Assembly (NCBI GenBank): GCA_963743045.1
Contig: CAVUOF010000017.1
Coordinates: 82,595-146,594 of the forward strand
From: an uncultured Acidobacteriota bacterium
Lineage (GTDB): Bacteria; Acidobacteriota; Blastocatellia; RBC074
Length of the DNA: 64,000 nt
Reading direction: 5' to 3'
The position numbers and the translations under genes were made by a program. Shown in pieces: positions 10,143 through 64,000 of this stretch. The notes beneath the pieces are model-generated. The model searched no databases. It was not told the DNA's origin and saw only the letters and a program-made list of their open reading frames with translations. Every line of letters begins with the position of its first letter. Within the stretch, counting starts at the first letter, position 1.

Positions 10143-10396
10143 CCTGGCGGTTGAACTCAACTTAAAGTCTTTTAATTTGCCGCCCCGATAACCTAAAGGT
10201 ACAATATTCGGGCTTCGGGTGGCTGGATCGATACCTGGCAACCTGAAACGTTTGACTTAAATGGGCAATTGAACGACCAAGGGTCAACGGTGACTCGGCG
10301 GGTTCATCCCAGTCTTCACCATGCTGAAAGGCATGTCATCTGGGTTGAACCAGGCGATCGGATTGATTGCCTCTAAAGAAACAAAAAGGAGCTTAA

Positions 10397-11386
10397 ATGC
10401 GAACCTCACGTAGCCTGATTCATGGCCTGCTGGCAGTGTGTGCCTTGCTGGTCATATCAACAGCCGCTTTTGCGGCCGATCCAGGGCTGGTCTACCCGGC
10501 CGCTTCTGAAGTCAGCGACCAGAAGGCTGGCTCAGTTCTGTTTTACAACACGTACACTTCTTCGGCGAGTGCTCCTGCACAGGAAAACACGCCGAATCAA
10601 CATCACCAACACGAGCACTACAGGTGCTGCATTCGTGCACCTCTACTTCGTTGAGGGCACGAGCTGCGGTATCGCAGATACCTTTATCTGCTTTACTCAG
10701 AATCAGACGGCCAGCTTTACAACGGCGGACGCTGATCCCGGCACGCGCGGCTACATCGTCGCGGTTGCAGTCGATGGCTTCACGGGCTGCCCGACAAATT
10801 TCAACTTCCTGATCGGCGACGAGTACGTCAGGTACGCCTCCGGTCATACTGCAAACCTCGGAGCGGAAGCAATCGCTGCTCTGTACCCGGGCAGTTTGCC
10901 TGGATGCGATGCCAATAGCACGATCGCGACTCTCTCCTTCGACGGCATCGCCGGGTACAACCAGATTCCGCGTGTGCTTGCCGATGACTCGATTCCGTCA
11001 CGGCTCGATGGCAATGACACCAAGCTCATCGTCAACCGCGTCGGAGGCAACCTCGTGACCGGTGCGGCCACGCTAGGGACACTCTTTGCCGTCATCTATG
11101 ATGACGCGGAGAACACATTCAGCACGAGCTTTACTGGGCAATGCCACCTCGAAATTTCGCTCGGAGCCAACAATCTGCCAGGGTAGTCGGTGGCTGGAAT
11201 GCGCTCATTCCCGCAGGCCATACCGGCTGGATGAAGTTCTGGTCCACAGCAGACATCGGAATCCTCGGTGCGGCGATCAATTTCAACGCCGGCGCAAGTG
11301 GATTCAATGGTGGCCACAACCTTCACAAGCTGACGTTGTCGGCAACCAACAATTACGTCGTTCCAGTCTTCCCGCCAGCTTGCTAG
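10397..11386 (+). CDS. Secreted protein of unknown function, paralogue 4 of 4; two frame breaks (about 10592 and about 11180)
   Basis: ORFs 10397..10654, 10422..11186 and 11141..11386 together are collinear with paralogue 1. QENT|RINITNTS needs one C removed near 10592. NNLP|RVVGGW needs one base added near 11180. Confidence 0.75.
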
Positions 11387-22234: not shown

Positions 22235-22435
22235 TGCCGCGCCAAAGGCGCGACCTTGAAGAGCCCGGGCGAAGCCCTGGGTATGCGTCACTAAACCGCA
22301 CGCAGCCCCATCGGGCGGCGTTTCGCCAATATCCAACTTATCCTGGGAATGCCACCCCGTTGGGGCTGCGCCTGGCGTCGGCGGTCAACCCGGGGCTTCG
22401 CCCCGGGCTTCTTCAGGTCGCGCCTTTGGCGCGAC
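22235..22435. mobile_element. Repeat family A, full inverted doublet (REPIN/MITE-like, about 200 bp)
   Basis: The left arm ccgcgccaaaggcgcgaccttgaagagcccgggcgaagccctggg faces the right arm cccggggcttcgccccgggcttcttcaggtcgcgcctttggcgcgac. There is an internal second inverted pair, gcagccccatcggg / ccccgttggggctgc. Confidence 0.75.
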
Positions 22436-22473
22436 AAACCACATTGATTCCTCTTCTCAAATGGAAGTGCCGC

Positions 22474-22570
22474 CGCGCCAAGGGCGCGACCTTGAATAGC
22501 CCAGGGCGAAGCCCTGGGTACCGTCCCCACACCGCAAACAGCCCCATCGGGGCGACCTTTCGCCATTGAC
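22474..22570 (+). repeat. Repeat family A, left arm plus internal segment only (half element)
   Basis: ccgcgccaagggcgcgaccttgaatagcccagggcgaagccctgggta followed by ..cagccccatcggggcgacctttcgccattgac. This matches the left halves of the elements at 22235 and 43231. Confidence 0.7.
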
Positions 22571-37190: not shown

Positions 37191-39666
37191 ATGTCATTCG
37201 TTAACGATTTGAGAGTTGCATTCCGCTCGCTGGCTCGAACCAAAGGGCTTGCGCTCACGGTGGTGCTGACGCTGGCGCTTGGCATCGGCGCCAACGCCGC
37301 CATCTTCACGCTGGTGCGCGGCGTGCTCCTCAAACCTCTCGTTAATCGCGACGAGGACCGGCTGATCTATATCCGTCAGAGCGCCCCTGGGGTCGGCGAC
37401 GACAACACAACCTTCTCCGTGCCCGAAATCCAGGATTTGCGCGCCAGCGTTAAAACTCTGAGCGCGTTCGGCGATTTCTCGACCGTCGGTTTCACCATGA
37501 TCGGCCTGGGTCAGCCTCGCGAAGTTCAAGCTGGCGTCGTCGGCGGCACCTACTTCGATGTTATGGGCCTTCACCCTGTCCTCGGTCGTCTCATCGGACC
37601 TCAAGACGACGGCCCCAACGCTGCCGGCGTCGTCGTTCTCACGTATCGTTTCTGGACGACCACTTTCAAGAAAGATCCTTCGGTCATCGGCAAAGCCGTT
37701 CGCCTTGATAGCGGTGTCCTTGGCAATCGGTCTGCCACCGTCATCGGCGTCCTCGAACCCTGCGTCCCATATCCCCAGGACACCGAAATCATCGCCAACG
37801 TCGTCACCAGCCCGCACCACCTCTCCGCCACCATGGTCACCGGCCGTATCCATCGCATGACTGAGCTCTTCGGCCGTCTCGCTCCCGGTGTCACCCTCGA
37901 TCAAGCTCGCGCCGAGTTGCGCTCCGTCTACGGGGCCATGATCAAGGAACATCCCGAAGCATATTCGCCCAAAGCGGACTTCCAGATCGGGGCGAAGCTG
38001 TTTCGCGACCAGATCACCTCGGGCGCCCGGACCGTGTTGCTGGTGCTGCTCGCAGCCTCAGTACTGGTCTTCGTCATCGCGTGTTCCAACGTCGCCAACC
38101 TGATTCTCACGCGGACGGTTCGCCGCGAAGGCGAGCTGACCATCCGTGCGGCACTCGGCGCCAGCACGGGCGCGCTGCGCCGCATGCTGCTGGCCGAAAG
38201 CCTTCTGCTTTGCAGCGCCGGCGCTGCTCTCGGCGTAATCAGCGCGCAGCCGATGGTGGCTATCCTGGCCCGCTACGCCTCGCGCTTTTCGGTCCGCGCG
38301 CTCGATTTGACGGTCGATTCCAGCCTGCTCTGGGTGGGAGCCGCGCTGGCCGTCGTCGCGGCGGTGATTCTGGCGTTCGTCCCGCGCCTGCCGTCGGCCG
38401 ATACGTCCAGTGGCCTTAGCCTATCGAGCGGCAGCGTACGGATTACCGGGAGCACCAGCCGCCGCCAGCGGATCTTCGCGGTGACACAAATCGCGGCATC
38501 CTTCGTGCTGCTGGCCGGTGCCAGCATGTTGATCACTACGCTGATCGCACTGCAAACGGCGCAGACAGGTGTCGACACCCGCCACGTCCTTGCCATCAAC
38601 GTCCCCGCTATGTCCTACGGAAAAACACCTCAGCAAGTGCTCGATTTCTACAAGGAATCGATTCGCCGCGTGGATGCGCTACCCGGCGTGAAAAAGACCG
38701 CTTTCGGCCTGACTCGTTCCCTGGCGCGATGCCGCCGCCGGCGTCGGCCTGCAATTCTCCGCCGACGGTCATGTTCATGCCGGGGGCGAAGAGGATCCTC
38801 GCGCGCAGTGGCGTGTCATCTCTCCCGGATTCTTTGCCGCGCTCGGCGTTCCCATCCTCACCGGTCGTGATTTCAACGACCTCGACGGCCAAAGTAAAGA
38901 TAAAGATCCCGTCGTCATCATCAGTGAGACTCTCGCACAGCGCATGTTCCCTCATCAGGATGCTATTAATCGGCATGTCTATTGGACGGATCCCGTGCTG
39001 AAATTCGTCCCGGGGATCAGCGCCGCACCGCACCGCATCATCGGCGTCACCGCCGATATTGACGACCAACACGTCGTTCCCGAGCCCATCCTCACCATCT
39101 ATAGCTCATTTGAAGAAGGGCCAATGTTTGGCGGCCGCCTTTTCATCCATACCGATGCAGATCCTTATTCGCTGGTCACGCCGGTCACGCGGATCATTCG
39201 CGACATGTCCGCCGACCAGCCCATTGAGCGTGCCGCCACTCTCGAAGACGTCCGCGCGGAAGTGCTTACGCCGGACCGTTTGAACTCGCTGGTGTTTGGC
39301 GTGTTCGCGGCCGTCGCGTTATCGATTGCCCTGGTTGGCGTCGCAGGCGTGCTGGCGTTTTCGGTCAGCTCGCGGACGCGCGAATTCGGTATCCGGCTGG
39401 CGCTCGGATCGCAACCACGGGATCTCCTGCGCGGCGTCATCGCAGAAGGCGCCGTGATGGCTGCGGCCGGCGTCCTCGCAGGCGCGGCATTCGGGTTCGT
39501 GATGGCGCGCTTGGCGGGCAGCTATTTCCTCGACGTGAAGATGCCGGGCGCCTTGCCCGTGGTCCTTTCTGCGTTCGTGCTGCTGACGGCCGCGGTCGTC
39601 GCATCCTCGGTGCCGGCCGCGCGCGCTGCGCGCATCGACGTCATGAAGGCTCTTCGCGCCGAGTGA
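37191..39666 (+). CDS. ADOP-type duplicated FtsX/MacB-like permease; one frame break near 38712-38722
   Basis: The N-terminus MSFVNDLRVAFRSLARTKGLALTVVLTLALGIGANAAIFTLVRGVLLKPL is typical of the family. The frame of ORF 37191..38870 is lost after ..KKTAFGL and resumes as VPWRDAAAGVGLQFSADG...ISPGFFAALGVPILTGRDF.., the frame of ORF 38944..39666. A second FtsX helix bundle sits at the C-terminus. Confidence 0.85.
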
Positions 39667-40110: not shown

Positions 40111-42732
40111 ATGATGCGAACAACAACAAGAGTTTTGCTTATGAACTTCTGCCTGATCGCGGCCGCGAGCGGGGTTATGGCTCAGGAGCCGCGGCAGGAC
40201 CAACCGCCTGCCGCAGACGCGCAGCGCCCCGTGTTCACTCCTCCAACGCAGGAACCGCAACCTTACGATAAGGTCATCACCAAGGAAGCCAAGTCGAAGA
40301 AAGGCATCTTCACAGTGCATCAGGTGAAGGAGAAGTATTACTACGAGATTCCCAAGAACGAATTCAACAAGGAGTTTCTCTGGGTTACGCAGATCGCCCG
40401 GACAACGCTTGGCGTAGGTTACGGCGGGCAGGCGTTGGGAAATCGCGTCGTGCGATGGGAGCGCAATGGCAATAAGATGTTTCTGCGAAACGTTAACTAC
40501 AGCGTCGTCGCGGATCCCAGGAAGCCGATCTCGCAAGCAGTGCAGGCAGCCAATAACGACTCGATCCTGATGACCTTTCCGGTGGCCGCCTGGGGCCCGG
40601 ATGAGGCGGCGGTGATCGAGGTCTCACGGCTGTTCACGACCGATGTGTTCGAGTTCAGCGCGCGGCAGCGGTTGAACGCTACAACCCTGGACTCCTCGCG
40701 ATCCTACATTGAGCGCATCTCGACTTATCAGCAGAATATCGAGGCAGAAGCTTCACAAACTTATACTCGGATGGCAACGCCAGTCGGAATCACTACCACT
40801 CCTGCGCCCCTTGCTGGAGGTATGAGTCCGGGCAGCGCGACCGTGGTTCTGCACTTTAGTATGGTGAAGCTCCCCGAGAAACCTATGATGCCGCGCGTCT
40901 TTGACGAGCGCGTCGGCTACTTTACGGCGAGCCAGATGGACTACGGTCGAGACAATGAACAAAAAGCGCCCGAGCGGCACTACATTACCCGCTGGCGGCT
41001 GGAGAAGAAGGATCCCAGCGCCGAACTCTCTGAGCCTGTCAAACCGATCGTTTATTGGATTGATTCGGCGACGCCCACCAAGTGGATCCCGTACATGAAA
41101 CGTGGAGTGGAGAAGTGGCAGAAGGCTTTCGAGGCAGCGGGCTTCAAGAACGCGATCATCGCCAAGCTGGCCCCGACGCCGCAAGAAGACCCCGACTTCA
41201 GTCCTGAGGATGCGCGTTACTCGGTGATCCGCTGGCTCCCTTCGACCATTGAGAACGCTTCGGGCCCGCACATCCATGATCCGCGCACCGGCGAGATTCT
41301 TGATTCGGACATTCAGTTCTATCACAACGTCATGAACCTCCAGCGCGCATGGTACTTCCTGCAGGCCGGACCGCTCGACTTGCGTGCGCAGAGGCTGCCC
41401 TTGCCTGACGATCTGATGGGCACCCTCCTGGAGTTTGTAGTTGCGCACGAGGTCGGGCACACGTTGGGCTTCCAGCACAACATGAAGGCAAGCTCGACTT
41501 ACCCCCAAGAGAAAGTCCGCGACCGCGAGTGGGTACATAAGATGGGCCACACGCCGTCGATCATGGATTATTCGCGCTTCAACTACGTGGCGCAGCCCGA
41601 GGACAAAATCGATGCCGGCCGATCTTGTTCCGGGCATCGGACCCTACGACGTATGGGCAACGATGTGGGGCTACAAGCCGATCTCCGGCGCGCACACTCC
41701 GGACGATGAGAAATCGACGCTTGACCAGTGGGCGCGCGAACAGGACAAGACGCCGTGGTACCGATTCTCGACCGCGGGCGCCGCGGGCAGCGATCCCGGC
41801 GAGCTGACTGAAGCGGTCGGTGACGCGCGATGCGGTGAAATCAACCACGATGGGTATCAAGAATTTGCAACGCGTGGCCAAGATGCTGTTGGCGGCGACC
41901 ACCTCGAAGGAGGGCGAATCTTATGACGACCTGGACCAGCTGTATGGCAGAATGCTCGGTCAGTGGACGCTGGAGCTGAGCCACGTAGCCGCCATCGTCG
42001 GCGGATTCAACAGCCAGCAAAAACGCGTGGGGCAGGATGGGGTGCGGTTCACGCCGGTGGCGAAGGCTCGTCAGATGGAGGCGGTGAAGTTTCTCAACGA
42101 GAATGCATTCTCAACACCGACCTGGGCGCTCGACAAAGACATCCTGCGGAGAATCGAGCCGATCGGCGCGCTAAACCGGGTGCGCAACGCGCAGAACAGT
42201 GTGTTGAATAATCTTCTCTCAAGCGCACGCTTCGCGCGGCTCGTAGAACAGCAAGCGCTTGACGGCGAAGGCGCTTATCAACCAGCCGAATTCCTCGCCG
42301 ACGTTCGCAAGGGTATCTGGAGCGAACTCGACCGCGCCGCATGGGAAGACCAACGCTTATCGCCGCAATCTCCAGCGCGCATATCTCGATTTGGCAAACA
42401 GCAAACTCAACGGCCCAACACAGGTGCTGCCCGCTGGTCTTCCATCGGCGTTTGCAGCGTTCTCCATCACAAGCGGTGACGAACGAGGGTTCTATCGCGC
42501 CGAACTTCGCGCTCTGAATACATCGGTAGCTGGGGCGCTTGCGAGGACAACCGATCGAGCCACCCGCGTGCACCTGGAAGACGTGCGTGATCAGATAGTC
42601 AAGATTCTCGATCCCAAGTTCGCCTCGAGTAACGCAGCGGCGGCGGCGGTGCGACTGTTCGGCTTTGAGCAACTGGACTCTTTTTTGAGGGACCCTGATA
42701 CGTGTTGGACGGATTACATCATTCGGCCATAG
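40111..42732 (+). CDS. Secreted zinc-dependent met-zincin protease (DUF4953/DUF5117-type); three frame breaks (about 41612, 41825, 42342)
   Basis: Signal peptide, then the HEVGHTLGFQHN...SIMDY motif. ORFs 40111..41709, 41612..41926, 41820..42479 and 42259..42732 join as ..EDKID|ADLVPGIGPYDVWA.., ..TEAVGD|DAVKSTTMGIKNL.. and ..SELDRAA|KTNAYRRNLQRAYLDL.. Confidence 0.8.
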
Positions 42733-43230: not shown

Positions 43231-43427
43231 GCGCGCCAACGGCGCGACCTAAGACAGCCCAGGGCGAAGCCCTGGGTATTCGCCAGCTATCACGCGCAGC
43301 CCCAACGGGGCGGCGTTTCGAGCATTGACTCTAGTCCCAACGGCGCCCCGTTGGGGCTTGGTCGCAGGTTCGGCTACGAACCCGGGGCTACGCCCCGGGC
43401 TATTTCAGGTCGCGCCGTTGGCGCGCC
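43231..43427. mobile_element. Repeat family A, full inverted doublet (REPIN/MITE-like)
   Basis: The left arm gcgcgccaacggcgcgacctaagacagcccagggcgaagccctggg faces the right arm cccggggctacgccccgggctatttcaggtcgcgccgttggcgcgcc. The internal pair is gcagccccaacgggg / ccccgttggggct. Confidence 0.8.
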
Positions 43428-49806: not shown

Positions 49807-50429
49807 GTTTTCTCCTCGGTATGGGATTGGTTCGATTGTGGATGCGCCACGATGACCAGCCGGTGCGCTCGACCTCCAGGTGCTGATGCGTCGTGATAGC
49901 GCCCAGCCAGCTGGGTGACTGCTCTGATGAGATCACTGCTGAAGGCCGCCCGGTCGGCAGCGGAACGGAAGCGAATGACAGTGTCCATGGAGAGGGTGGC
50001 CAAACGTTTATCCATCTTCTCAGACCGGCCAAGCAGCGCTTTGACCTCGTGTACGACACGAGCTGCAAGCGCGATGAGATAGGCGGCTGAGAGCCGATCA
50101 GTATCTCGATCCGGATCGGCGGCGACGGCCCCCATGGCAACCGGTGAGACCAGATATGATGCGGCCGTCGCGACCAGGCGCCGTTCGATGAGACCTCCCC
50201 ACTGGCGCGTTTCGGCGACATTTACGAGGTTATGGGCCTCGAGGGCTCGAAGGTGGTAATTGATCTTCTGACGGGGTACGCCGAGTCGTGCGGCGAGCTC
50301 GGCTGCCGAAGCAGGCGTAGCCAGTTCTGCGAGGAGCCGGCTCCGCACCGGCTCGAGCGCGACCATGGCGGCATTGGGATCGTCGATGACTTCGAGCGCC
50401 TGCACGCCAGTGACTCTACGCCTTGACAA
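49803..50429 (-). CDS. ArsR/SmtB-family winged-helix transcriptional regulator
   Basis: ..ALEPVRSRLLAELATPASAAELAARLGVPRQKINYHLRALEAHNLV.. The ORF-track TTG start (50429) sits inside the operator palindrome. The in-frame GTG at 50405 is the more likely start. Confidence 0.75.
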   Translation of the reverse strand: MSRRRVTGVQALEVIDDPNAAMVALEPVRSRLLAELATPASAAELAARLGVPRQKINYHLRALEAHNLVNVAETRQWGGLIERRLVATAASYLVSPVAMGAVAADPDRDTDRLSAAYLIALAARVVHEVKALLGRSEKMDKRLATLSMDTVIRFRSAADRAAFSSDLIRAVTQLAGRYHDASAPGGRAHRLVIVAHPQSNQSHTEEKT

Positions 50430-50444
50430 GATTATTTGTCAAGG
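50413..50444 (-). promoter_or_regulatory. Promoter (TTGACA-N18-TAGAGT) overlapping a 9-6-9 perfect palindrome (candidate ArsR-type operator)
   Basis: ccttgacaa-gattat-ttgtcaagg (50421-50444). On the - strand, TTGACA is at 50442-50437 and TAGAGT at 50418-50413. The GTG at 50405 is 7 nt downstream of the -10 element. Confidence 0.45.
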
Positions 50445-50504
50445 CGGATGAGAAAAAATTAGAAGCGGCGCCGGGGGCGCCGCATTCCAGACGATCTCAG
50501 CTTG

Positions 50505-51041
50505 TCATTGGCTGGGCTTCTTGGCTGGTGGCGCCGCTTTTGGCGCCTCGGATGGCTTCCTGATCACTTCCCCTCCACCTGCCTCCCATGCATCGAGACC
50601 ACCCTTCAAGGCGCTCGCACCCTTGTAACCGGCCTTCTCCAGCAGCAGTGCCGCACGGGCACTCGTGTGTTCGACCGGTCAGGTGCAGTAAGCGACTATG
50701 CGTTTCTCCTTTGGAAGGTCCTTGAAGTCTCCCTTCTCGATGCGATCGAGCGGATAGGATACCGACCCCTTTGCATGGGCCGCATTGAAGGAATCGGGAG
50801 AACGCACATCCACAATCAACACTTCGTTTCTGGCCACCAAAGCCTTGAGCTCGGCGACCTCAATTCGCGGCGCGTTGTCACCTTGCGGCGGCGACGTGCC
50901 GGGAGCTACGGTGATCACGGGTGTCGCGAGGGCCGTGGCAGCCGGCTGACTACCGCTGGCCTTGCGCTCGGCGCAAGACAGCAGGAGGGCTGAGCATATG
51001 GCCATCGCGAGGCTCAGGAAGACTTTTGATTCCTTGTTCAT
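50505..51041 (-). CDS. Rhodanese-domain lipoprotein with an in-frame TGA (50679-50681) at the catalytic-Cys position; candidate selenoprotein, otherwise truncated
   Basis: MNKESKVFLSLAMAICSALLLSC (lipobox) ...EVLIVDVRSPDSFNAAHAKGSVSYP...KEKRIVAYCT-TGA-PVEHTSARAALLLEKAGYKGASALKGGLDAWEAGGGEVIRK...PSQ*. The same frame stays open for 58 more codons after the TGA and encodes the rest of the rhodanese fold. Confidence 0.65.
50629..50681 (-). promoter_or_regulatory. Candidate bacterial SECIS-like two-tier hairpin immediately 3' of the in-frame UGA
   Basis: After the UGA, CCGGUC (50678-50673) pairs with GGCCGG (50634-50629) with one U-G pair. The upper stem is AGUGCC (50663-50658) paired with GGCACU (50652-50647), with apical loop CGUGC starting 21 nt after the UGA. 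Confidence 0.3.
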
Positions 51042-51275
51042 ATTCAATAGTCTACACGAATGTCTCCCTTCTAAAAAAGAGACGAAGAGGCCTCGCACCT
51101 GGCCTGTAACATTGAGCCGACACCGATAGATATCCCGATCACTAACACCTCAAAGCTGCTATCATTGTACATTCAATCAAAATCTGGCCGCTCGACCGCC
51201 GCAAGGGCTGCGGGCTCTCGTGTCGGGGTGACCAGGAGAAACGGATTCTCGATTCCAATTGAAGGAGAAGTGCCT

Positions 51276-53097: not shown

Positions 53098-53308
53098 GTT
53101 GCCGCGCCAAGGGCGCGACCTGAAATAGCCCAGGGCGAAGCCCTGGGTCCTTGGCAACGAAACGAAACCCAGCCCTATATAGGGGCGGCATTTTCGCAAC
53201 GGTTCGATTCTACTTGGTGAATGCCGCCCCTGTGGGACTACCAATTTGCTCCTTCGTGAATCCCGGGGCTACGCCCCGGGCTATTTCAGGTCGCGCCTTT
53301 GGCGCGAC
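53098..53308. mobile_element. Repeat family A, full inverted doublet (REPIN/MITE-like)
   Basis: The left arm gttgccgcgccaagggcgcgacctgaaatagcccagggcgaagccctggg faces the right arm cccggggctacgccccgggctatttcaggtcgcgcctttggcgcgac. Confidence 0.8.
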
Positions 53309-60495: not shown

Positions 60496-60665
60496 CGCGC
60501 CAAGGGCGCGACCTGGAATAGCCCAGGGCGCAGCCCTGGGTCAGGATCGAGATTCGTCGAGCCCTATTAGTGGTGTCATATCGCGCCCTGACAGGGCGCT
60601 GGATCTTTTCGATTTATACCCGGGGCTTCGCCCCGGGCTATTACAGGTCGCGCCTTTGGCGCGCC
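60496..60665. mobile_element. Repeat family A, full inverted doublet (REPIN/MITE-like)
   Basis: The left arm cgcgccaagggcgcgacctggaatagcccagggcgcagccctggg faces the right arm cccggggcttcgccccgggctattacaggtcgcgcctttggcgcgcc. Confidence 0.8.
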
Positions 60666-60750: not shown

Positions 60751-63700
60751 CTAGAAGGTGATTCCCAGTCCAAAGAAGATATTCCTTGGCGTTCCATTCC
60801 CATTGGTCGATGTAATCCGACCGAAGTTCGTGCTGTCGAAAGTCTGATCGGCGAACGCGAACTGAGGGTGATTGAAAGCATTCAGGAACGTCGCATGGAA
60901 ATCTACCGTCGCCCGCTCCGTGATCTTGGTTCTCTTGACGATGTTGAAATCGACCTGTGAGAACCCGGGCTGATTGAGAAGGCCTCTCGGGAAGTTGCCA
61001 AATGTGCCGGGCGCCGGAGCTGCAAACAACCCCGCACTTGCGGTAGCCGAGTTGACTAATCCTGTCGCCGCAGCCGTGGTGGTCGTCAGCAGCTTCGGAT
61101 CGATGAAGAATATCCCGGTGGGAGTTTTGAACAAGCCGACACTGTTCTGGAAATCCTTGAAGCTCATTCCGGTCAGGAGGGCTGGATTCAATCCTACGCT
61201 CGAGCCTGGACTGCCGCCGGTGAAGGAATTGAAGGTTGATCGATTCGAGAAGACCGAAAAGGGCAAGCCCGATTGAACGGTCACGATACCGGTCACCTCC
61301 CATCCTTCGATAGCCTTGCGCACCGGCGCAGGACCGCTGTTCAGCCATCGATGCCCCTGGCCGAACGGGAGCTCATAGATAAAGTTCGAAATGAATCTAT
61401 GAGTCTGATCGAAGCTTGCCCGGTGAATGTCAAGGCTCGGGTTTCGCAGCGTGAGGTACGAGTTGAGAGAGCTCTGGGAATTAATGCCCGTGTTCGTATT
61501 GGCGTCAGTGTCGGTCATCACCTTACTGAATGTGTAATCGGCCTGAAACGAGAATCCGCGTGTCAAACGCTTACGGATCTCCACCTGGAGCGAGTGATAC
61601 TTCGAGAATGAGGCATTGGTCAGCAGGTCGGCAAATGCTGCGTTCGGGTTGGCGACGAAGAAGTTCGGCGCCAATGCAGTCCGCGTACCAGCGTAGGTTG
61701 GACTGAATGCAAGGGTTGCCCCAAGCGTGCCTACGTTATTGTTTTGCAGATTGCTGATGAACGTCGCATTGGTGAAACCTGAGGCTGCCGGCAGCCCATT
61801 GAAGAGCGCGGTGAAGATCGGGAGAGGTACCGTTCCCGCCTTGCCGGGAGCAAAGGTAGTACCGCCGTTGACCGCAAGGTTCGTCTGAGCGTTGAGGAAC
61901 TCCTTCAGGAAGCCATTCTCAAAGATATTGACTTCGTTGAGGTTGATCGCGCGATATACCTTGATGGCGTGATTGCCCACGTAGCGGATCTCGATCGCGG
62001 TGTCCCGGGCTATTTCACGCTCGATTCCGAATGACCACTGCTGGACATAAGGTACACGAAGATTCGGATCGAAGGTCCACAGCCCATTGTTCGAGTTTTT
62101 CTGAAGGTTTGCCGCATCAGTGATTGGAATCTGAAACGCGGGTGCGGGAAGCGGAAGGCCGCCCGCGGTCAGCACGCCCGTCGGTGTGTTGTTCGCCTGG
62201 GCCTGAATCAGCCCAGGATTTGTAGTTCCAGTCCCGAGAGCATTGCTGACAATCGTGAAGCCATCATGGAGGTAGCTCATCGAGTATCCGGCACGGATCG
62301 AGCTCTTGCCATCCTTGCCGAAGATCCAGCTCAGAGGACCGCTCTCAAAATTCGGAGAGTAGGCGATGCCGATGAAGGGCGCAAAATTGTTCCAGTCGTT
62401 GTTGTAAAGGTTCTTGCCCGTGTCCCCGCTGACGAAGTCGAGCGAAGTCGGTGCAGTGCCCTTCAGTACGCCCGGGTTGAAGAGGTTGCCAACACCGGTA
62501 ATGCCGTACAGGCCGGCAATACCGTTCGTCGGCTGGATACCCAGACCATCCGGGAGCGTCGGCACTCCTTCCCATTCCCACCTGAGACCGTAGTTGACAG
62601 TCAGATTGCGCTTAGCGCGCCACTGATCCTGAGCATAGAGATTTATGTCCCGCTGCTTGAATACTCGGGATCGCGTGGCGCCCGGAACAAATCCGGACGA
62701 CGGACTTGTAACGTTGAAGGTCTGAGTCGCGTTGTTAAGGAACCCGGTGACGTCGGCAAAGATGTTATGAGCCCGGTTGACAATTGCCGTTCCAGTCGCG
62801 CCGGCCGGGAGATTCGGGAATGATGAGGCCGTTATTCCATCGCTGTTTGCCGAGTTTGTGCCCAGCGTGATCACCGGCCAGATGCCCGCGTCGTTGTAGG
62901 TGATCGCGCTGATTGACTGCACATCTGTGCCTACGCGCACCGTGTGCGAGCCCTTGACGTAGGAGAAATTGTCGAGGAACTGGTAGACGATCGTATTGCG
63001 TCCCTGCGGACATGAATTGGAGCCTGGCATTGGTTACACCATCAACGCCTGCAGTGCCCGGGAAGGTTACGAAGTAGGGATCCGGAGGCGGAGCATCACG
63101 CGTGAATCCGACCGGCGCACGCTGATGCCCGAAGCGAGCCTCATTGGTGGCCCGAGCCCCGAACGTCGACTGAATCGCCGCAGCCGCGAGCGTTCGAATT
63201 GAGCTCTGACTGGCGCTGATTCCACCCGGAAACGGCGCCTCGTTACTGTTGAACGTGTCCGGGCTGATCAGGAAGCTGCCGCGATGGTAAACGAGCTCGA
63301 GCTTGTGAGATCCGAAGCGCTGGCTGTCGATAAGGCTCTGGTCGATGCGGAAGTTGTAGCGGTTGTTCGGATCAGCACCGGGTACGTTGTACTGGAAGCC
63401 TTGCGTATTGAGGCCGTCGCCCACGAGTGAATTGTTGGGCAGGGGCATTGCGTTCAAGAACGATGTAGTCACTGGATTGAGCGTCTTCGCATTTCCGATC
63501 GTCAGCAGGTTAACCGTCTGTGTCTGCCCGTTCGATCCGACGTAGTTGAAGAGGCCCAGGCGAGCTTGGGGCGTCAGTACCGTACGGTTGCGTGTCGCCG
63601 AGAACGGTTCGCGAAAGCCTTCGTACGAGAAGAACCAGAAGCTCTTGTCTCGGCCATCGTAACCGGCCGGACCAAAAACCTTCTTGGGTAGAACGATCGG

Positions 63701-64000
63701 ACCACTGAGCGCGAATCCGAAGTAGTTCTGGCGAATTATGGTTCGTGGCGTATGGTTGACATTGTTGAAGAAACTATTGGCATTCAGGAAGTCATTGTGG
63801 TGCTCCCAGAAGACGCTCCCATGGAGAGCGTTGCCACCCGATGGCGTCACCATGCGAACCTGTGCGACTCCCCGGCCCGAATCTGAGCCCACCGTTCCAA
63901 CGGTGATGCTGAATTCGGCCGTCGAGTTGAGCGTCGGAGCGGTGAGCGCGAAGAACGAGTCCGTCTTGACGAAGTTGTCCATCGCGTTGATGCCGTCCTG
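60751..64000 (-). CDS. TonB-dependent-receptor-like outer-membrane beta-barrel (large acidobacterial type); 5' end outside the window; one frame break within about 62990-63035
   Basis: ORF 62765..63982 (and beyond) continues into ORF 60751..63030 (..TIVYQFLDNFSYVKGSHTVRVGTDVQ..). The sequence is Gly/Asn/Thr/Phe-rich with beta-strand periodicity. The terminal ..IFFGLGITF* ends in the aromatic residue typical of OMPs. Confidence 0.8.

What the first reader, a model, noticed from the sequence alone, without database searches (positions are those of the whole stretch)
50505..51041. In-frame TGA at the catalytic-cysteine position of a rhodanese lipoprotein, followed by a SECIS-like hairpin
The ORF track stops the rhodanese ORF at ..KEKRIVAYCT-TGA (50679-50681). 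The same frame continues for 58 further codons (PVEHTSARAALLLEKAGYKGASALKGGLDAWEAGGGEV...) and encodes exactly the part of the fold that must follow the active-site loop. I made a gapless alignment from memory with E. coli GlpE (..[21 protein letters not shown]....DGGFEAW). Counting back from the conserved GY, it places the TGA on the catalytic Cys (C-Y-H-G-N-S-S vs U-P-V-E-H-T-S). Many homologues carry a YC(T/S)CP.E motif whose second Cys is this residue. A two-tier hairpin starts directly after the UGA, with a 6-bp lower stem, a 6-bp upper stem and apical loop CGUGC about 21 nt downstream. That is the layout expected of a bacterial SECIS. UGA replacing a catalytic Cys is the classic hallmark of a selenoprotein. 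As far as I recall, rhodanese-related sulfurtransferases were among the selenoprotein families reported from marine metagenomes. The alternative is a nonsense substitution or a base-call error.
Basis: partly seen in the sequence, partly recalled or inferred. Interest (0 to 1): 0.8.

Follow-up and report, generated by a model that had tools for sequence, protein, structure and literature searches.

The report
Selenocysteine rhodanese lipoprotein gene with SECIS
The "stop" codon inside this small sulfur-transferase (rhodanese) gene very probably encodes selenocysteine, making it a divergent member of an already catalogued selenoprotein family that public gene calls cut short.

Summary
On the minus strand an ORF starts at ATG 51041, meets an in-frame TGA at 50679-50681 (codon 121, after Y-C-T), and stays open for 57 more codons to TGA 50505-50507. 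The Pfam rhodanese domain spans the internal TGA.

- All 7 metagenomic orthologue sequences and 78 of 80 homologues from Acidobacteriota, Chloroflexota and Syntrophales carry TGA at this codon. The other two carry TGC.
- Cys-type homologues have an invariant Cys in that column (YCxCPxE).
- The downstream frame is under purifying selection.
- A hairpin 21 nt after the UGA (5-6 bp stem, loop CGUGC) is frozen at synonymous sites, shows U:A to C:G double changes, and meets the published bacterial SECIS criteria.
- TGA is the normal stop of 18 of 25 genes in the window, so recoding must be local.

The closest known family is NCBIfam NF041203, "rhodanese-related (seleno)protein", motif CxU. A Syntrophaceae homologue with the same hairpin passes its cut-off. 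The window protein (76.8 vs 115 bits) does not.

Not tested: selA, selB, selC and selD in this genome. None lies in the window, and the rest of the contig could not be fetched.

Verdict: real, a new divergent member of a known kind, of modest interest.

The parts
50505..51041 (-). Full selenoprotein gene: 178 codons plus stop. ATG at 51039-51041, Sec-UGA at codon 121, true stop TGA at 50505-50507.
   Evidence: The Pfam rhodanese domain spans the internal TGA. Orthologues share the same architecture.
50973..51041 (-). Lipoprotein signal peptide, residues 1-23 (MNKESKVFLSLAMAICSALLLSC). The lipobox is L-L-S-C23.
   Evidence: Read from the sequence. A lipobox-like motif after a hydrophobic stretch occurs in 62 of 87 family members. 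Most of the rest have ordinary signal peptides.
50580..50858 (-). Rhodanese domain, residues 62-154.
   Evidence: PF00581, 59.7 bits against a cut-off of 22.2. PDB rhodanese-domain matches.
50685..50687 (-). TGC codon for Cys119, the first residue of the C-x-U motif.
   Evidence: Cys in 85 of 86 Sec-type genes, and TGA in one. At least 90% conserved in Cys homologues.
50679..50681 (-). In-frame UGA, read as selenocysteine 121.
   Evidence: TGA in all 7 metagenomic orthologue sequences and in 78 of 80 genome homologues, TGC in the other 2. The column is an invariant Cys in 25 Cys-type homologues.
50647..50663 (-). SECIS core hairpin AGUGCC-CGUGC-GGCACU. The loop lies at 50653-50657 and starts 21 nt after the UGA. 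Energy alone is -9.2 kcal/mol.
   Evidence: The codons are frozen at synonymous sites. The hairpin meets the bSECIS constraints quoted.
50626..50681 (-). Optional lower helix: UGACCGGUC (50673-50681) paired with GGCCGGUUA (50626-50634). It encloses the core hairpin and includes the UGA.
   Evidence: MFE folds. All 8-9 pairs form in only 11 of 86 sequences, the window's clade included. Only a short core is common elsewhere. It may be an accessory or a by-product of the Pro, Gly and Tyr codons.
50455..50483 (-). Intrinsic-terminator-like site GCGGCGCC-CCC-GGCGCCGC followed by UUCUAAUUUU, 22 nt after the true stop codon.
   Evidence: It places the end of the transcript after the second TGA, not after the first.

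Best explanation
This is a bona fide selenoprotein gene encoding an exported, lipid-anchored single-domain rhodanese with a C119-x-U121 active-site motif.

Inferred mechanism:
1. A monocistronic mRNA ends at the terminator at about 50455-50483.
2. The ribosome starts at AUG 51041 and reaches UGA 50679-50681.
3. SelB-GTP-Sec-tRNA(Sec) binds the hairpin at 50647-50663 (loop CGUGC) and delivers selenocysteine instead of release factor 2.
4. Translation melts the hairpin, whose bases also encode the invariant peptide T-S-A-R-A-A, and stops at UGA 50505.
5. The 178-residue precursor is exported through the Sec translocon and lipidated at Cys23.
6. The rhodanese domain then works outside the cytoplasmic membrane. 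Sec121 acts as the nucleophile that carries sulfane sulfur or forms a selenylsulfide with Cys119.

Shown here: the sequence anatomy, its conservation, the RNA-level constraint, the Sec/Cys alternation, and the relationship to NF041203.

Inferred, not shown: SelB binding, actual selenium insertion, export and lipidation, and the chemistry.
For: 1. The codon is conserved as TGA. This holds in all 7 distinct metagenomic orthologue sequences (51-83% identity over the part before the UGA; one of them found on 7 contigs) and in 78 of 80 species-representative genomes. Titles name Acidobacteriota, Blastocatellales, Pyrinomonadaceae, Vicinamibacteria, Anaerolineales, Chloroflexia and Syntrophales.
2. 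The only alternative is Cys. L020, L045 and P0066 carry TGC. The column is an invariant Cys in 25 Cys-type homologues.
3. The frame after the UGA is translated. It stays open for 44-60 codons in every orthologue. dN/dS is 0.08-0.25 after the UGA against 0.11-0.28 before it.
4. There is an RNA-level constraint. Across 86 genes the hairpin codons are Ser AGC/AGU only, Ala GCC 85/86, Arg CGU 82/86 and Ala GCG 85/86. Invariant Gly+17, Tyr-3 and Cys-2 use synonymous codons freely. The 5-bp core is paired in 84-86 of 86 genes at every position and the loop is CGUGC in 82 of 86.
5. Covariation supports the stem. One pair is C:G 67, U:A 16, and both sides are synonymous third positions. The closing pair changes to U:A once. 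90.9% of cells are paired against 31-56% in slid controls, and 0 of 500 shuffles reach the covariation score.
6. The bSECIS criteria quoted are met. These are loop 3-9 nt, stem at least 4 bp, a G in the first two loop positions, 16-37 nt spacing, and MFE at or below -7.5. The window has loop CGUGC, 6 bp, 21 nt and -9.2 kcal/mol.
7. There is a within-contig control. In L095 a Cys paralogue (YCSCGAEQTSKRAA) lacks the hairpin (-2.6 kcal/mol). The adjacent Sec paralogue has it.
8. TGA is the ordinary stop of 18 of 25 Pfam-supported genes in the window, so recoding is local and not a code change.
9. The top NCBIfam hit is NF041203, 'rhodanese-related (seleno)protein'. Syntrophaceae homologue L072 has the same hairpin and passes the cut-off (134.8 vs 115 bits).
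10. Rhodanese CxU selenoproteins are catalogued in the literature (PMC13188914; PMC9312934).
11. Sec-using Acidobacteria are known (PMC1794560; PMC12013277).
Against: - No selA, selB, selD or tRNA-Sec lies in the 64-kb window.
- No tRNA-Sec was found in 88 related loci.
- The rest of the 154.7-kb contig and the genome could not be reached. The machinery is therefore assumed.
- The window protein scores below the NF041203 cut-off (76.8 vs 115 bits).
- Rfam has no matching family.
- The hairpin on this single sequence is only marginally better than shuffles.
- The assembly has several frameshifted genes, so its base-level quality is imperfect.
- The 78-of-80 figure is biased. The scan patterns included the peptide encoded by the hairpin, which favours Sec-type genes.
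- There is no experimental evidence for selenium in any member that I could find.
Confidence: 0.92

Rival explanations
1. UGA is read through without selenocysteine. One route is a suppressor tRNA, such as the acidobacterial allo-tRNAs or a SelC*-type tRNA-Cys that mimics tRNA-Sec. Another is near-cognate tRNA-Trp. The product would then be a Cys or Trp protein, and the hairpin would stimulate read-through.
For: Mukai et al. (PMC5389517) describe tRNA-Sec-like tRNAs. Allo-tRNAs in Acidobacteria may act as nonsense suppressors. SelC* tRNA-Cys in anaerobes may act as an opal suppressor. The Sec machinery of this genome was not seen.
Against: The hairpin fits the SelB-type bSECIS model. It is identical in a homologue that passes NCBI's selenoprotein model. 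The column alternates only with Cys, as is usual for Sec. If Cys were the inserted residue, a TGC codon would be simpler, and it is in fact found in a few lineages. SelC* genes were reported in Firmicutes, Thermodesulfobacteria, Nitrospirae and Proteobacteria, not in Acidobacteria.
Confidence: 0.04
2. The gene is a pseudogene, inactivated by a nonsense mutation of the catalytic Cys codon (TGC or TGT to TGA).
For: TGC to TGA is a single-base change. The window contains other apparently disrupted genes.
Against: The same TGA occurs in 85 other genes across phyla. The downstream frame is intact and under purifying selection. A conserved RNA hairpin follows.
Confidence: 0.01
3. The TGA is a base-call or assembly error in this contig.
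For: Several frameshifts in the window suggest indel errors.
Against: Independent assemblies from many samples and projects carry the identical TGA and context. The errors seen elsewhere in the window are indels, not substitutions.
Confidence: 0.005
4. Translation really ends at 50679-50681, giving a 120-residue protein. The hairpin would be a regulatory or terminator element and the downstream frame open by chance.
For: Public gene calls do exactly this. P0001-P0010 are all 100-123 residues and end in YCT.
Against: The truncated product lacks a third of the rhodanese fold, including the active-site loop and the GGxxAW helix. Downstream codons show dN/dS of 0.08-0.25. The real terminator lies after the second stop. 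The hairpin has no T-run.
Confidence: 0.01

Closest known systems
NCBIfam NF041203 'rhodanese_LYCAU, rhodanese-related (seleno)protein'. [quoted passage not shown]
   Same: It is the best NCBIfam hit for the window protein. Both are single rhodanese domains with the same C-x-U motif and the same Sec column. The bona fide member L072 (Syntrophaceae, 134.8 bits) carries the same hairpin G(U/C)GCC-CGUGC-GGC(A/G)C at the same distance. Both have N-terminal export signals.
   Different: The window protein scores 76.8 bits, below the curated 115-bit cut-off. The same is true of the other Acidobacteriota and the Anaerolineales members tested (62-103 bits). It has a lipobox plus a Pro/Ala-rich linker and a C-terminal Lys/Pro-rich tail. 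The motif reads AYCTU-PVEH rather than LYC(A/T)U-HNEA.
Other catalogued rhodanese selenoprotein forms: UxxS, UxxG, TsoB UxxxxU, and the Sargasso Sea and GOS 'rhodanese-related sulfurtransferase' families.
   Same: Rhodanese fold with Sec in or near the active-site loop. All were predicted by the same Sec/Cys-plus-SECIS logic.
   Different: They have different Sec-flanking motifs and no Cys two residues upstream. TsoB is only a weak hit (21.6 bits against a cut-off of 805).
Cys-type homologues. These are DedA/VTT-rhodanese fusion proteins of Rhodanobacter, Dyella and Frateuria ('DedA family protein/thiosulfate sulfurtransferase GlpE'), and single-domain lipoprotein or secreted forms (P0066, P0136, P0011).
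   Same: They carry the YC(S/T/N)C(P/G)xE active-site motif. The second Cys aligns with Sec121 and is invariant. Identity over the domain is 33-57%.
   Different: They use TGC. Where DNA was available they have no SECIS hairpin (P0066 and L020). The peptide after the motif is variable (ATSASAA, QTSKRAA, ESSGRAA) rather than the frozen TSARAA. Many are fused to a DedA membrane domain.
Bacterial SECIS consensus model of Zhang and Gladyshev (as quoted in PMC13188914). The E. coli formate-dehydrogenase genes carry the best-characterised bacterial SECIS elements according to that review.
   Same: The hairpin lies inside the coding sequence right after the UGA. It has a small apical loop with G then U in positions 2-3, a 4-16 bp stem, 16-37 nt spacing and MFE at or below -7.5.
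   Different: No sequence similarity to any Rfam family was found. SelB binding is untested. This element is unusually invariant in sequence across phyla.
Single-domain rhodanese sulfurtransferases with solved structures: GlpE (1gmx), the YgaP rhodanese domain, BH2092 (3nhv), and Wolinella periplasmic polysulfide-sulfur transferase Sud (1qxn).
   Same: Same fold by sequence. The AF2 model of the Cys paralogue P0066 also matches them. Sud is periplasmic (from general knowledge, not checked here).
   Different: Those enzymes use a single catalytic Cys in a 6-residue loop. Here the loop region is two residues longer when counted from Cys119, and it carries a Cys-x-Sec pair.

Membership tests
Bacterial selenoprotein gene (Sec-UGA plus bSECIS) | In-frame UGA inside a conserved ORF, with the downstream part homologous to the rest of the protein family. 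| tested here: met
   the Pfam domain spans the UGA; orthologues.
Bacterial selenoprotein gene (Sec-UGA plus bSECIS) | UGA conserved in orthologues, with Cys in the same column of Cys-type homologues. | tested here: met
   86 TGA-bearing genes, counting the window. Three genes with TGC. An invariant Cys in 25 Cys homologues.
Bacterial selenoprotein gene (Sec-UGA plus bSECIS) | Purifying selection on codons after the UGA. | tested here: met
   dN/dS of 0.08-0.25 downstream against 0.11-0.28 upstream, in six close orthologues.
Bacterial selenoprotein gene (Sec-UGA plus bSECIS) | [quoted passage not shown] | tested here: met
   Loop CGUGC, 6 bp, 21 nt, -9.2 kcal/mol. Conserved with covariation.
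Bacterial selenoprotein gene (Sec-UGA plus bSECIS) | selA, selB, selC (tRNA-Sec) and selD present in the same genome. | not testable with these tools
   None lies in the 64-kb window. The contig is not indexed for retrieval.
Bacterial selenoprotein gene (Sec-UGA plus bSECIS) | Selenium demonstrated in the protein by 75Se labelling or mass spectrometry. | not testable with these tools
   This needs an experiment.
NCBIfam NF041203 rhodanese_LYCAU (equivalog) | HMM score at or above the curated cut-off of 115 bits. | tested here: not met
   76.8 bits with Cys substituted for Sec. Syntrophaceae homologue L072 scores 134.8 bits.
NCBIfam NF041203 rhodanese_LYCAU (equivalog) | C-x-U (or C-x-C) motif at the end of the central strand of a single rhodanese domain. 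| tested here: met
   Y118-C119-T120-U121. NF041203 is the top NCBIfam hit for all 13 family members scanned.
NCBIfam NF041203 rhodanese_LYCAU (equivalog) | Common descent of the Sec trait, judged by the same SECIS at the same position as in a bona fide member. | tested here: met
   L072 and the window share GUGCC-CGUGC-GGCAC starting at the same offset from the UGA.
Rhodanese homology domain (Pfam PF00581) | Score above the gathering threshold over the whole domain. | tested here: met
   59.7 bits against 22.2, profile positions 2-101 of 102. PDB rhodanese matches.
Rhodanese homology domain (Pfam PF00581) | Catalytic residue at the start of a 6-residue active-site loop that precedes the helix. 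| tested here: inconclusive
   BLASTP to GlpE (sequence from memory) puts U121 on Cys65, giving the loop U-P-V-E-H-T. HMMER alignment to BH2092 instead pairs C119 with that protein's YC. The AF2 model of paralogue P0066 places both Cys residues in the loop between strand 115-119 and helix 125-137.
Bacterial lipoprotein | N-terminal signal peptide ending in a lipobox [LVI][ASTVIL][GAS]C. | tested here: met
   K3/K6, a hydrophobic core, then L-L-S-C23. The pattern is found in 62 of 87 family members. Processing was not tested.

The most novel reading that the evidence does not exclude
The window gene represents a large subfamily of exported, mostly lipid-anchored C-x-U rhodanese selenoproteins that no curated model recognises. 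It is found in soil and sediment Acidobacteriota and Anaerolineales and falls below the NF041203 cut-off, so gene callers truncate it systematically. Its SECIS is almost identical in sequence across three phyla, because the hairpin doubles as the codons for an invariant T-S-A-R-A-A peptide. That would suggest a self-contained Sec cassette that moves between phyla and works with divergent SelB proteins. In some genomes it sits next to a Cys paralogue, which could serve as a selenium-independent backup.
Probability: 0.4. Interest if true: 0.4.

Novelty: new member of a known kind. Interest (0 to 1): 0.3.

Why it matters
- **Annotation:** every database protein of this clade (P0001-P0010, including the public call for this very contig) is truncated at YCT. 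Several are misnamed, for example 'SseA' or 'lysophospholipase'. The active-site half of the enzyme is therefore missing from protein databases.
- **Model coverage:** the curated selenoprotein model NF041203 captures only the Syntrophales core. Lowering the cut-off or adding a sister model would recover at least dozens of species from Acidobacteriota and Chloroflexota.
- **Biology:** the gene implies that this acidobacterium uses selenium and places a selenoenzyme outside the cytoplasmic membrane.
- **Dual coding:** the frozen hairpin is a clean example of a coding sequence constrained at both the RNA and the protein level.

None of this changes the general understanding of Sec decoding.

Tried and rejected
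1. **Sec machinery.** ARAGORN and Rfam on the window found only tRNA-Leu and Acido-Lenti-1 RNAs. Pfam scans of 43 window ORFs found no SelA, SelB or SelD. ARAGORN on 88 related loci found no tRNA-Sec. An odd 98-nt 'tRNA-Ala' call in L045 has no Rfam support.
2. **Reaching the rest of the contig or naming the organism.** P0001 and P0021 are not indexed for retrieval. The cluster look-ups gave no accession or organism name.
3. **A second selenoprotein gene in the window.** A scan for pairs of long open frames separated by a single in-frame TGA gave 120 candidates, too noisy in G+C-rich DNA. The split Met-zincin gene is explained by two frameshifts, not by a TGA. A second near-match to the hairpin at 40965-40979 lies inside an open ORF with no UGA.
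4. **Rfam on the hairpin region at E up to 10.** Nothing was found.
5. **Conserved gene neighbours as a clue to function.** Only lineage-specific synteny appeared: Peptidase_M3 and Glyoxalase neighbours (28 and 13 of the 145 neighbouring ORFs scanned, which by gene layout seem to lie in the Anaerolineales loci), AhpC/Redoxin neighbours in 5, and the ArsR-like/AHSA1/MFS genes in the window's clade.
6. **AlphaFold on the window read-through protein.** The Cys paralogue P0066 was modelled instead.
7. **Genome-wide TGA reassignment.** Rejected, because 18 of 25 confident genes end in TGA.
Full report
**1. What is in the sequence**

The feature lies on the minus strand. An ORF begins at ATG 51039-51041. 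It encodes 120 residues ending ...KEKRIVAYCT and meets TGA at 50679-50681. The same frame continues for 57 sense codons (PVEHTSARAALLLEKAGYKGASALKGGLDAWEAGGGEVIRKPSEAPKAAPPAKKPSQ) to a second TGA at 50505-50507. The recoded residue is therefore number 121, and the read-through product has 178 residues.

With Cys placed at the TGA, Pfam Rhodanese (PF00581) matches residues 62-154. This covers profile positions 2-101 of 102 at 59.7 bits. The internal TGA therefore cuts the domain in two.

The N-terminus (MNKESKVFLSLAMAICSALLLSC23) has the shape of a lipoprotein signal peptide. A terminator-like hairpin with a T-run follows the second stop, at 50455-50483. The window is 58% G+C. TGA ends 18 of its 25 Pfam-supported genes, so TGA is an ordinary stop here.

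**2. Is it more than chance?**

On this sequence alone, barely.
- The 71-nt segment after the TGA folds at -27.9 kcal/mol, with z = -2.0. Eight of 200 shuffles fold as well.
- An open frame of 57 codons is not rare in G+C-rich DNA.

The comparative evidence is what decides.
- A protein search returned nine relatives of 62-100% identity. All are 118-123 residues long and all end in YCT. A tenth, at 51% identity, is truncated in the same way.
- One of these is the public gene call for this very contig (P0001, NCBI/ENA, contig length 154,714).
- Every metagenomic contig retrieved has TGA at that codon. The frame stays open for 44-60 conserved codons after it.
- A scan of one genome per species returned 80 loci. 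Their titles name Acidobacteriota, Blastocatellales, Pyrinomonadaceae, Vicinamibacteria, Anaerolineales and other Chloroflexota, and Syntrophales.
- 78 of these loci have TGA at the aligned codon and two have TGC.
- This proportion is biased. One scan pattern was the peptide encoded by the hairpin. It should not be read as the true ratio of Sec to Cys forms.

**3. Sec/Cys alternation**

Full-length Cys-type relatives exist.
- P0011, P0066 and P0136 are single-domain forms.
- A large group are DedA/VTT-rhodanese fusions from Rhodanobacter, Dyella and Frateuria. They carry YC(S/T/N)C(P/G)xE.

In an alignment of the window protein with 25 such proteins, the Sec column is an invariant Cys. The Cys two residues upstream is conserved in at least 90%. 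No residue other than Sec or Cys was seen in that column.

**4. The downstream frame is translated**

Between the window and six close orthologues, dN/dS over the 41 codons after the UGA is 0.08-0.25. Over the 60 codons before it the value is 0.11-0.28.

**5. The RNA element**

The core hairpin in the window is AGUGCC-CGUGC-GGCACU at 50647-50663. Its loop starts 21 nt after the UGA. The hairpin alone folds at -9.2 kcal/mol.

Across the 86 TGA-bearing genes, the five codons that form the hairpin are frozen at synonymous sites.

| Codon (relative to UGA) | Usage in 86 genes |
|---|---|
| Ser +6 | only AGC or AGU, never UCN |
| Ala +7 | GCC in 85 |
| Arg +8 | CGU in 82 (six codons possible) |
| Ala +9 | GCG in 85 |
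| Ala +10 | GCG or GCA |
| Gly +17 (control, invariant residue) | GGU 37, GGA 25, GGC 19, GGG 3 |
| Tyr -3 and Cys -2 (controls) | both codons used |

The third positions of Ser +6 and Ala +10 pair with each other and covary. The counts are C:G 67, U:A 16 and mismatch 1. The closing pair changes from C:G to U:A once (L091).

U:A occurs in the window's clade, in L021, in the Anaerolineales genome L047, and in most of the genomes labelled Syntrophales or delta proteobacterium (seven of eight). The nearest relatives of L021 and L047 have C:G. This implies several independent double changes.

For a 7-bp helix, 90.9% of cells pair. With the partner slid by 1-3 columns, 31-56% pair. No shuffle out of 500 reaches the observed covariation score. 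RNAalifold recovers the 5-bp core on its own. The loop is CGUGC in 82 of 86 genes.

The element meets all four constraints of the published bacterial SECIS model, as quoted in PMC13188914:
- a loop of 3-9 nt;
- a G in the first two loop positions, followed by G or U;
- a stem of 4-16 bp;
- 16-37 nt between UGA and loop, with MFE at or below -7.5 kcal/mol.

The invariance of the peptide T-S-A-R-A-A in Sec-type genes is best read as a by-product of this RNA constraint. Cys-type genes vary there (ATSASAA, QTSKRAA, ESSGRAA).

Controls:
- The Cys gene L020 has no hairpin (-2.7 kcal/mol).
- On contig L095 a Cys paralogue without the hairpin (-2.6 kcal/mol) sits directly upstream of a Sec paralogue with the canonical hairpin.
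- The Cys gene of Pyrinomonas methylaliphatogenes K22 (L045) keeps the stem, but its loop is CGCGC.

It is 9 bp and includes the UGA. All 8-9 pairs form in only 11 of the 86 sequences, a set that includes the window's clade. Elsewhere only a short CCG/CGG core recurs, which may simply reflect the Pro and Gly codons.

**6. What it is called in the literature**

Rhodanese-related sulfurtransferases have been listed as predicted selenoproteins since the Sargasso Sea and GOS analyses (PMC1088965 and PMC2398784). Recent catalogues split them into forms. One form has the motif CxU and the model NF041203 (PMC9312934 and PMC13188914).

NF041203, 'rhodanese_LYCAU, rhodanese-related (seleno)protein', is the best NCBIfam hit of the window protein. 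The score is 76.8 bits against a curated cut-off of 115. Scores of other members tested:

| Member | Bits |
|---|---|
| Syntrophaceae L072 | 134.8 (passes) |
| Chloroflexia L069 | 103 |
| Anaerolineales L041 | 83 |
| Acidobacteriota and related (6 tested) | 62-86 |

L072 has the same hairpin at the same offset. The window gene therefore shares the Sec trait by descent with the recognised family. It belongs to a divergent branch that the curated model does not capture.

**7. Localisation and function (inferred)**

62 of 87 family members have a lipobox after a hydrophobic stretch. Most of the rest have ordinary signal peptides. The family therefore appears to act outside the cytoplasm.

Aligning from the strand side pairs Cys119 instead (BH2092).

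An AlphaFold model of the Cys paralogue P0066 has pLDDT of about 83-98 over the domain. It places both residues in the loop between strand 115-119 and helix 125-137. The model matches single-domain rhodaneses: BH2092, the YgaP rhodanese domain, Alr3790, human TSTD1 and Wolinella polysulfide-sulfur transferase Sud.

I take Sec121 as the nucleophile and Cys119 as a resolving or selenylsulfide partner. This step is inference.

Gene neighbours are not conserved across phyla. In the window's clade the gene is flanked by a Ysc84-like gene on one side. On the other side lie an ArsR-like HTH_20 regulator, an AHSA1/SRPBCC protein and an MFS transporter. The rhodanese gene has its own terminator.

**8. 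What could not be tested**

No selA, selB, selD or tRNA-Sec lies in the window. None of the 88 related loci holds a tRNA-Sec. The rest of the contig could not be fetched.

Sec use does occur in the phylum. The 2006 survey counted 3 families and 4 selenoproteins in Acidobacteria (PMC1794560). Occallatibacter riparius has 3 selenoprotein genes (PMC12013277).

A minor rival is insertion of another residue by tRNA-Sec-like suppressor tRNAs, which have been described in Acidobacteria and in anaerobes (PMC5389517).

**9. Verdict**

The gene is a selenocysteine-encoding rhodanese lipoprotein with a conserved SECIS. It is a new, divergent member of a known predicted selenoprotein kind.

Its practical value is in annotation, because truncated calls are present throughout public databases. 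It is also a clear example of dual RNA and protein coding. It is not surprising to a specialist.

Noticed in passing
window 40111-42479 (+); 37191-39666 (+); 60751-63982 (-): Three genes are split by frame changes rather than by in-frame stops. The Met-zincin DUF5117/DUF4953 gene needs two 1-nt frame changes, near 41617 (gccggcc) and near 41826 (gacgcgcgat). A MacB_PCD/FtsX permease is split into 559 and 240 residues. An OMP_b-brl_4 outer-membrane barrel is split into two overlapping ORFs. These are either indel errors in the assembly or pseudogenes.
   Followed up: partly
window 22389-22518, 43232-43425, 53103-53306, 60496-60663: There are eight copies of the Rfam Acido-Lenti-1 RNA (RF01687, 38.7-43.3 bits against a gathering score of 37). 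They are arranged as four closely spaced pairs on opposite strands. This supports an acidobacterial origin. Their role here is unknown.
   Followed up: no
window 50413-50445: A perfect palindrome CTTGACAA-gattat-TTGTCAAG overlaps a sigma-70-like promoter (TTGACA, 18 nt, TAGAGT; 10 of 12 matches). It lies at the 5' end of the ArsR-like HTH_20 ORF, whose listed TTG start (50429) falls inside the palindrome. It looks like an autoregulatory operator.
   Followed up: partly
window 51079-51096 (-): A terminator-like hairpin with a T-run lies in the 5' leader of the rhodanese gene, about 40 nt upstream of the ATG on the same strand. It could be chance, since 0.8 such sites are expected per region, or it could be a leader structure.
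   Followed up: no
L091:560-590: One homologue (uncultured bacterium MAG, CBDUSH010000156.1) also has TGA at the first Cys of the motif (LVLY-TGA-S-TGA-PAEATSARAA). It may be a U-x-U double-Sec variant. Its hairpin closing pair has changed from C:G to U:A.
   Followed up: no
L095:3001-3938: Tandem paralogues lie on one contig. A Cys-type lipoprotein rhodanese (P0066, YCSC, no hairpin) is followed 38 nt later by a Sec-type copy (YCT-TGA, canonical hairpin). This may be a selenium-independent and selenium-dependent isoform pair.
   Followed up: partly
L045:10199-10260 (Pyrinomonas methylaliphatogenes K22): The Cys-type (TGC) gene of this cultured acidobacterium keeps the SECIS stem (-10.1 kcal/mol), but its loop is CGCGC instead of CGUGC. 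This fits a recent Sec-to-Cys conversion. ARAGORN calls an odd 98-nt 'tRNA-Ala' overlapping the 3' end of the gene on the opposite strand, and Rfam does not support it.
   Followed up: partly
L072, L077, L086, L090, L094 (loci labelled Syntrophales / delta proteobacterium), about 10350-11200: In the neighbour scan five neighbouring ORFs matched AhpC/Redoxin/thioredoxin-like/GSHPx families. They are probably the roughly 170-residue ORFs on the opposite strand next to the bona fide NF041203-type genes in these loci. I did not check which loci they came from, or whether they are themselves selenoproteins.
   Followed up: no
L023, L030: Two Sec-type loci are titled Heliomicrobium or Heliobacteriaceae MAGs. 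Their proteins are 40-50% identical to the window protein over the matched segment, as are those of the Blastocatellia-type acidobacterial loci, and L030 shares their active-site and helix motif. This probably reflects mis-binning or mislabelling.
   Followed up: no
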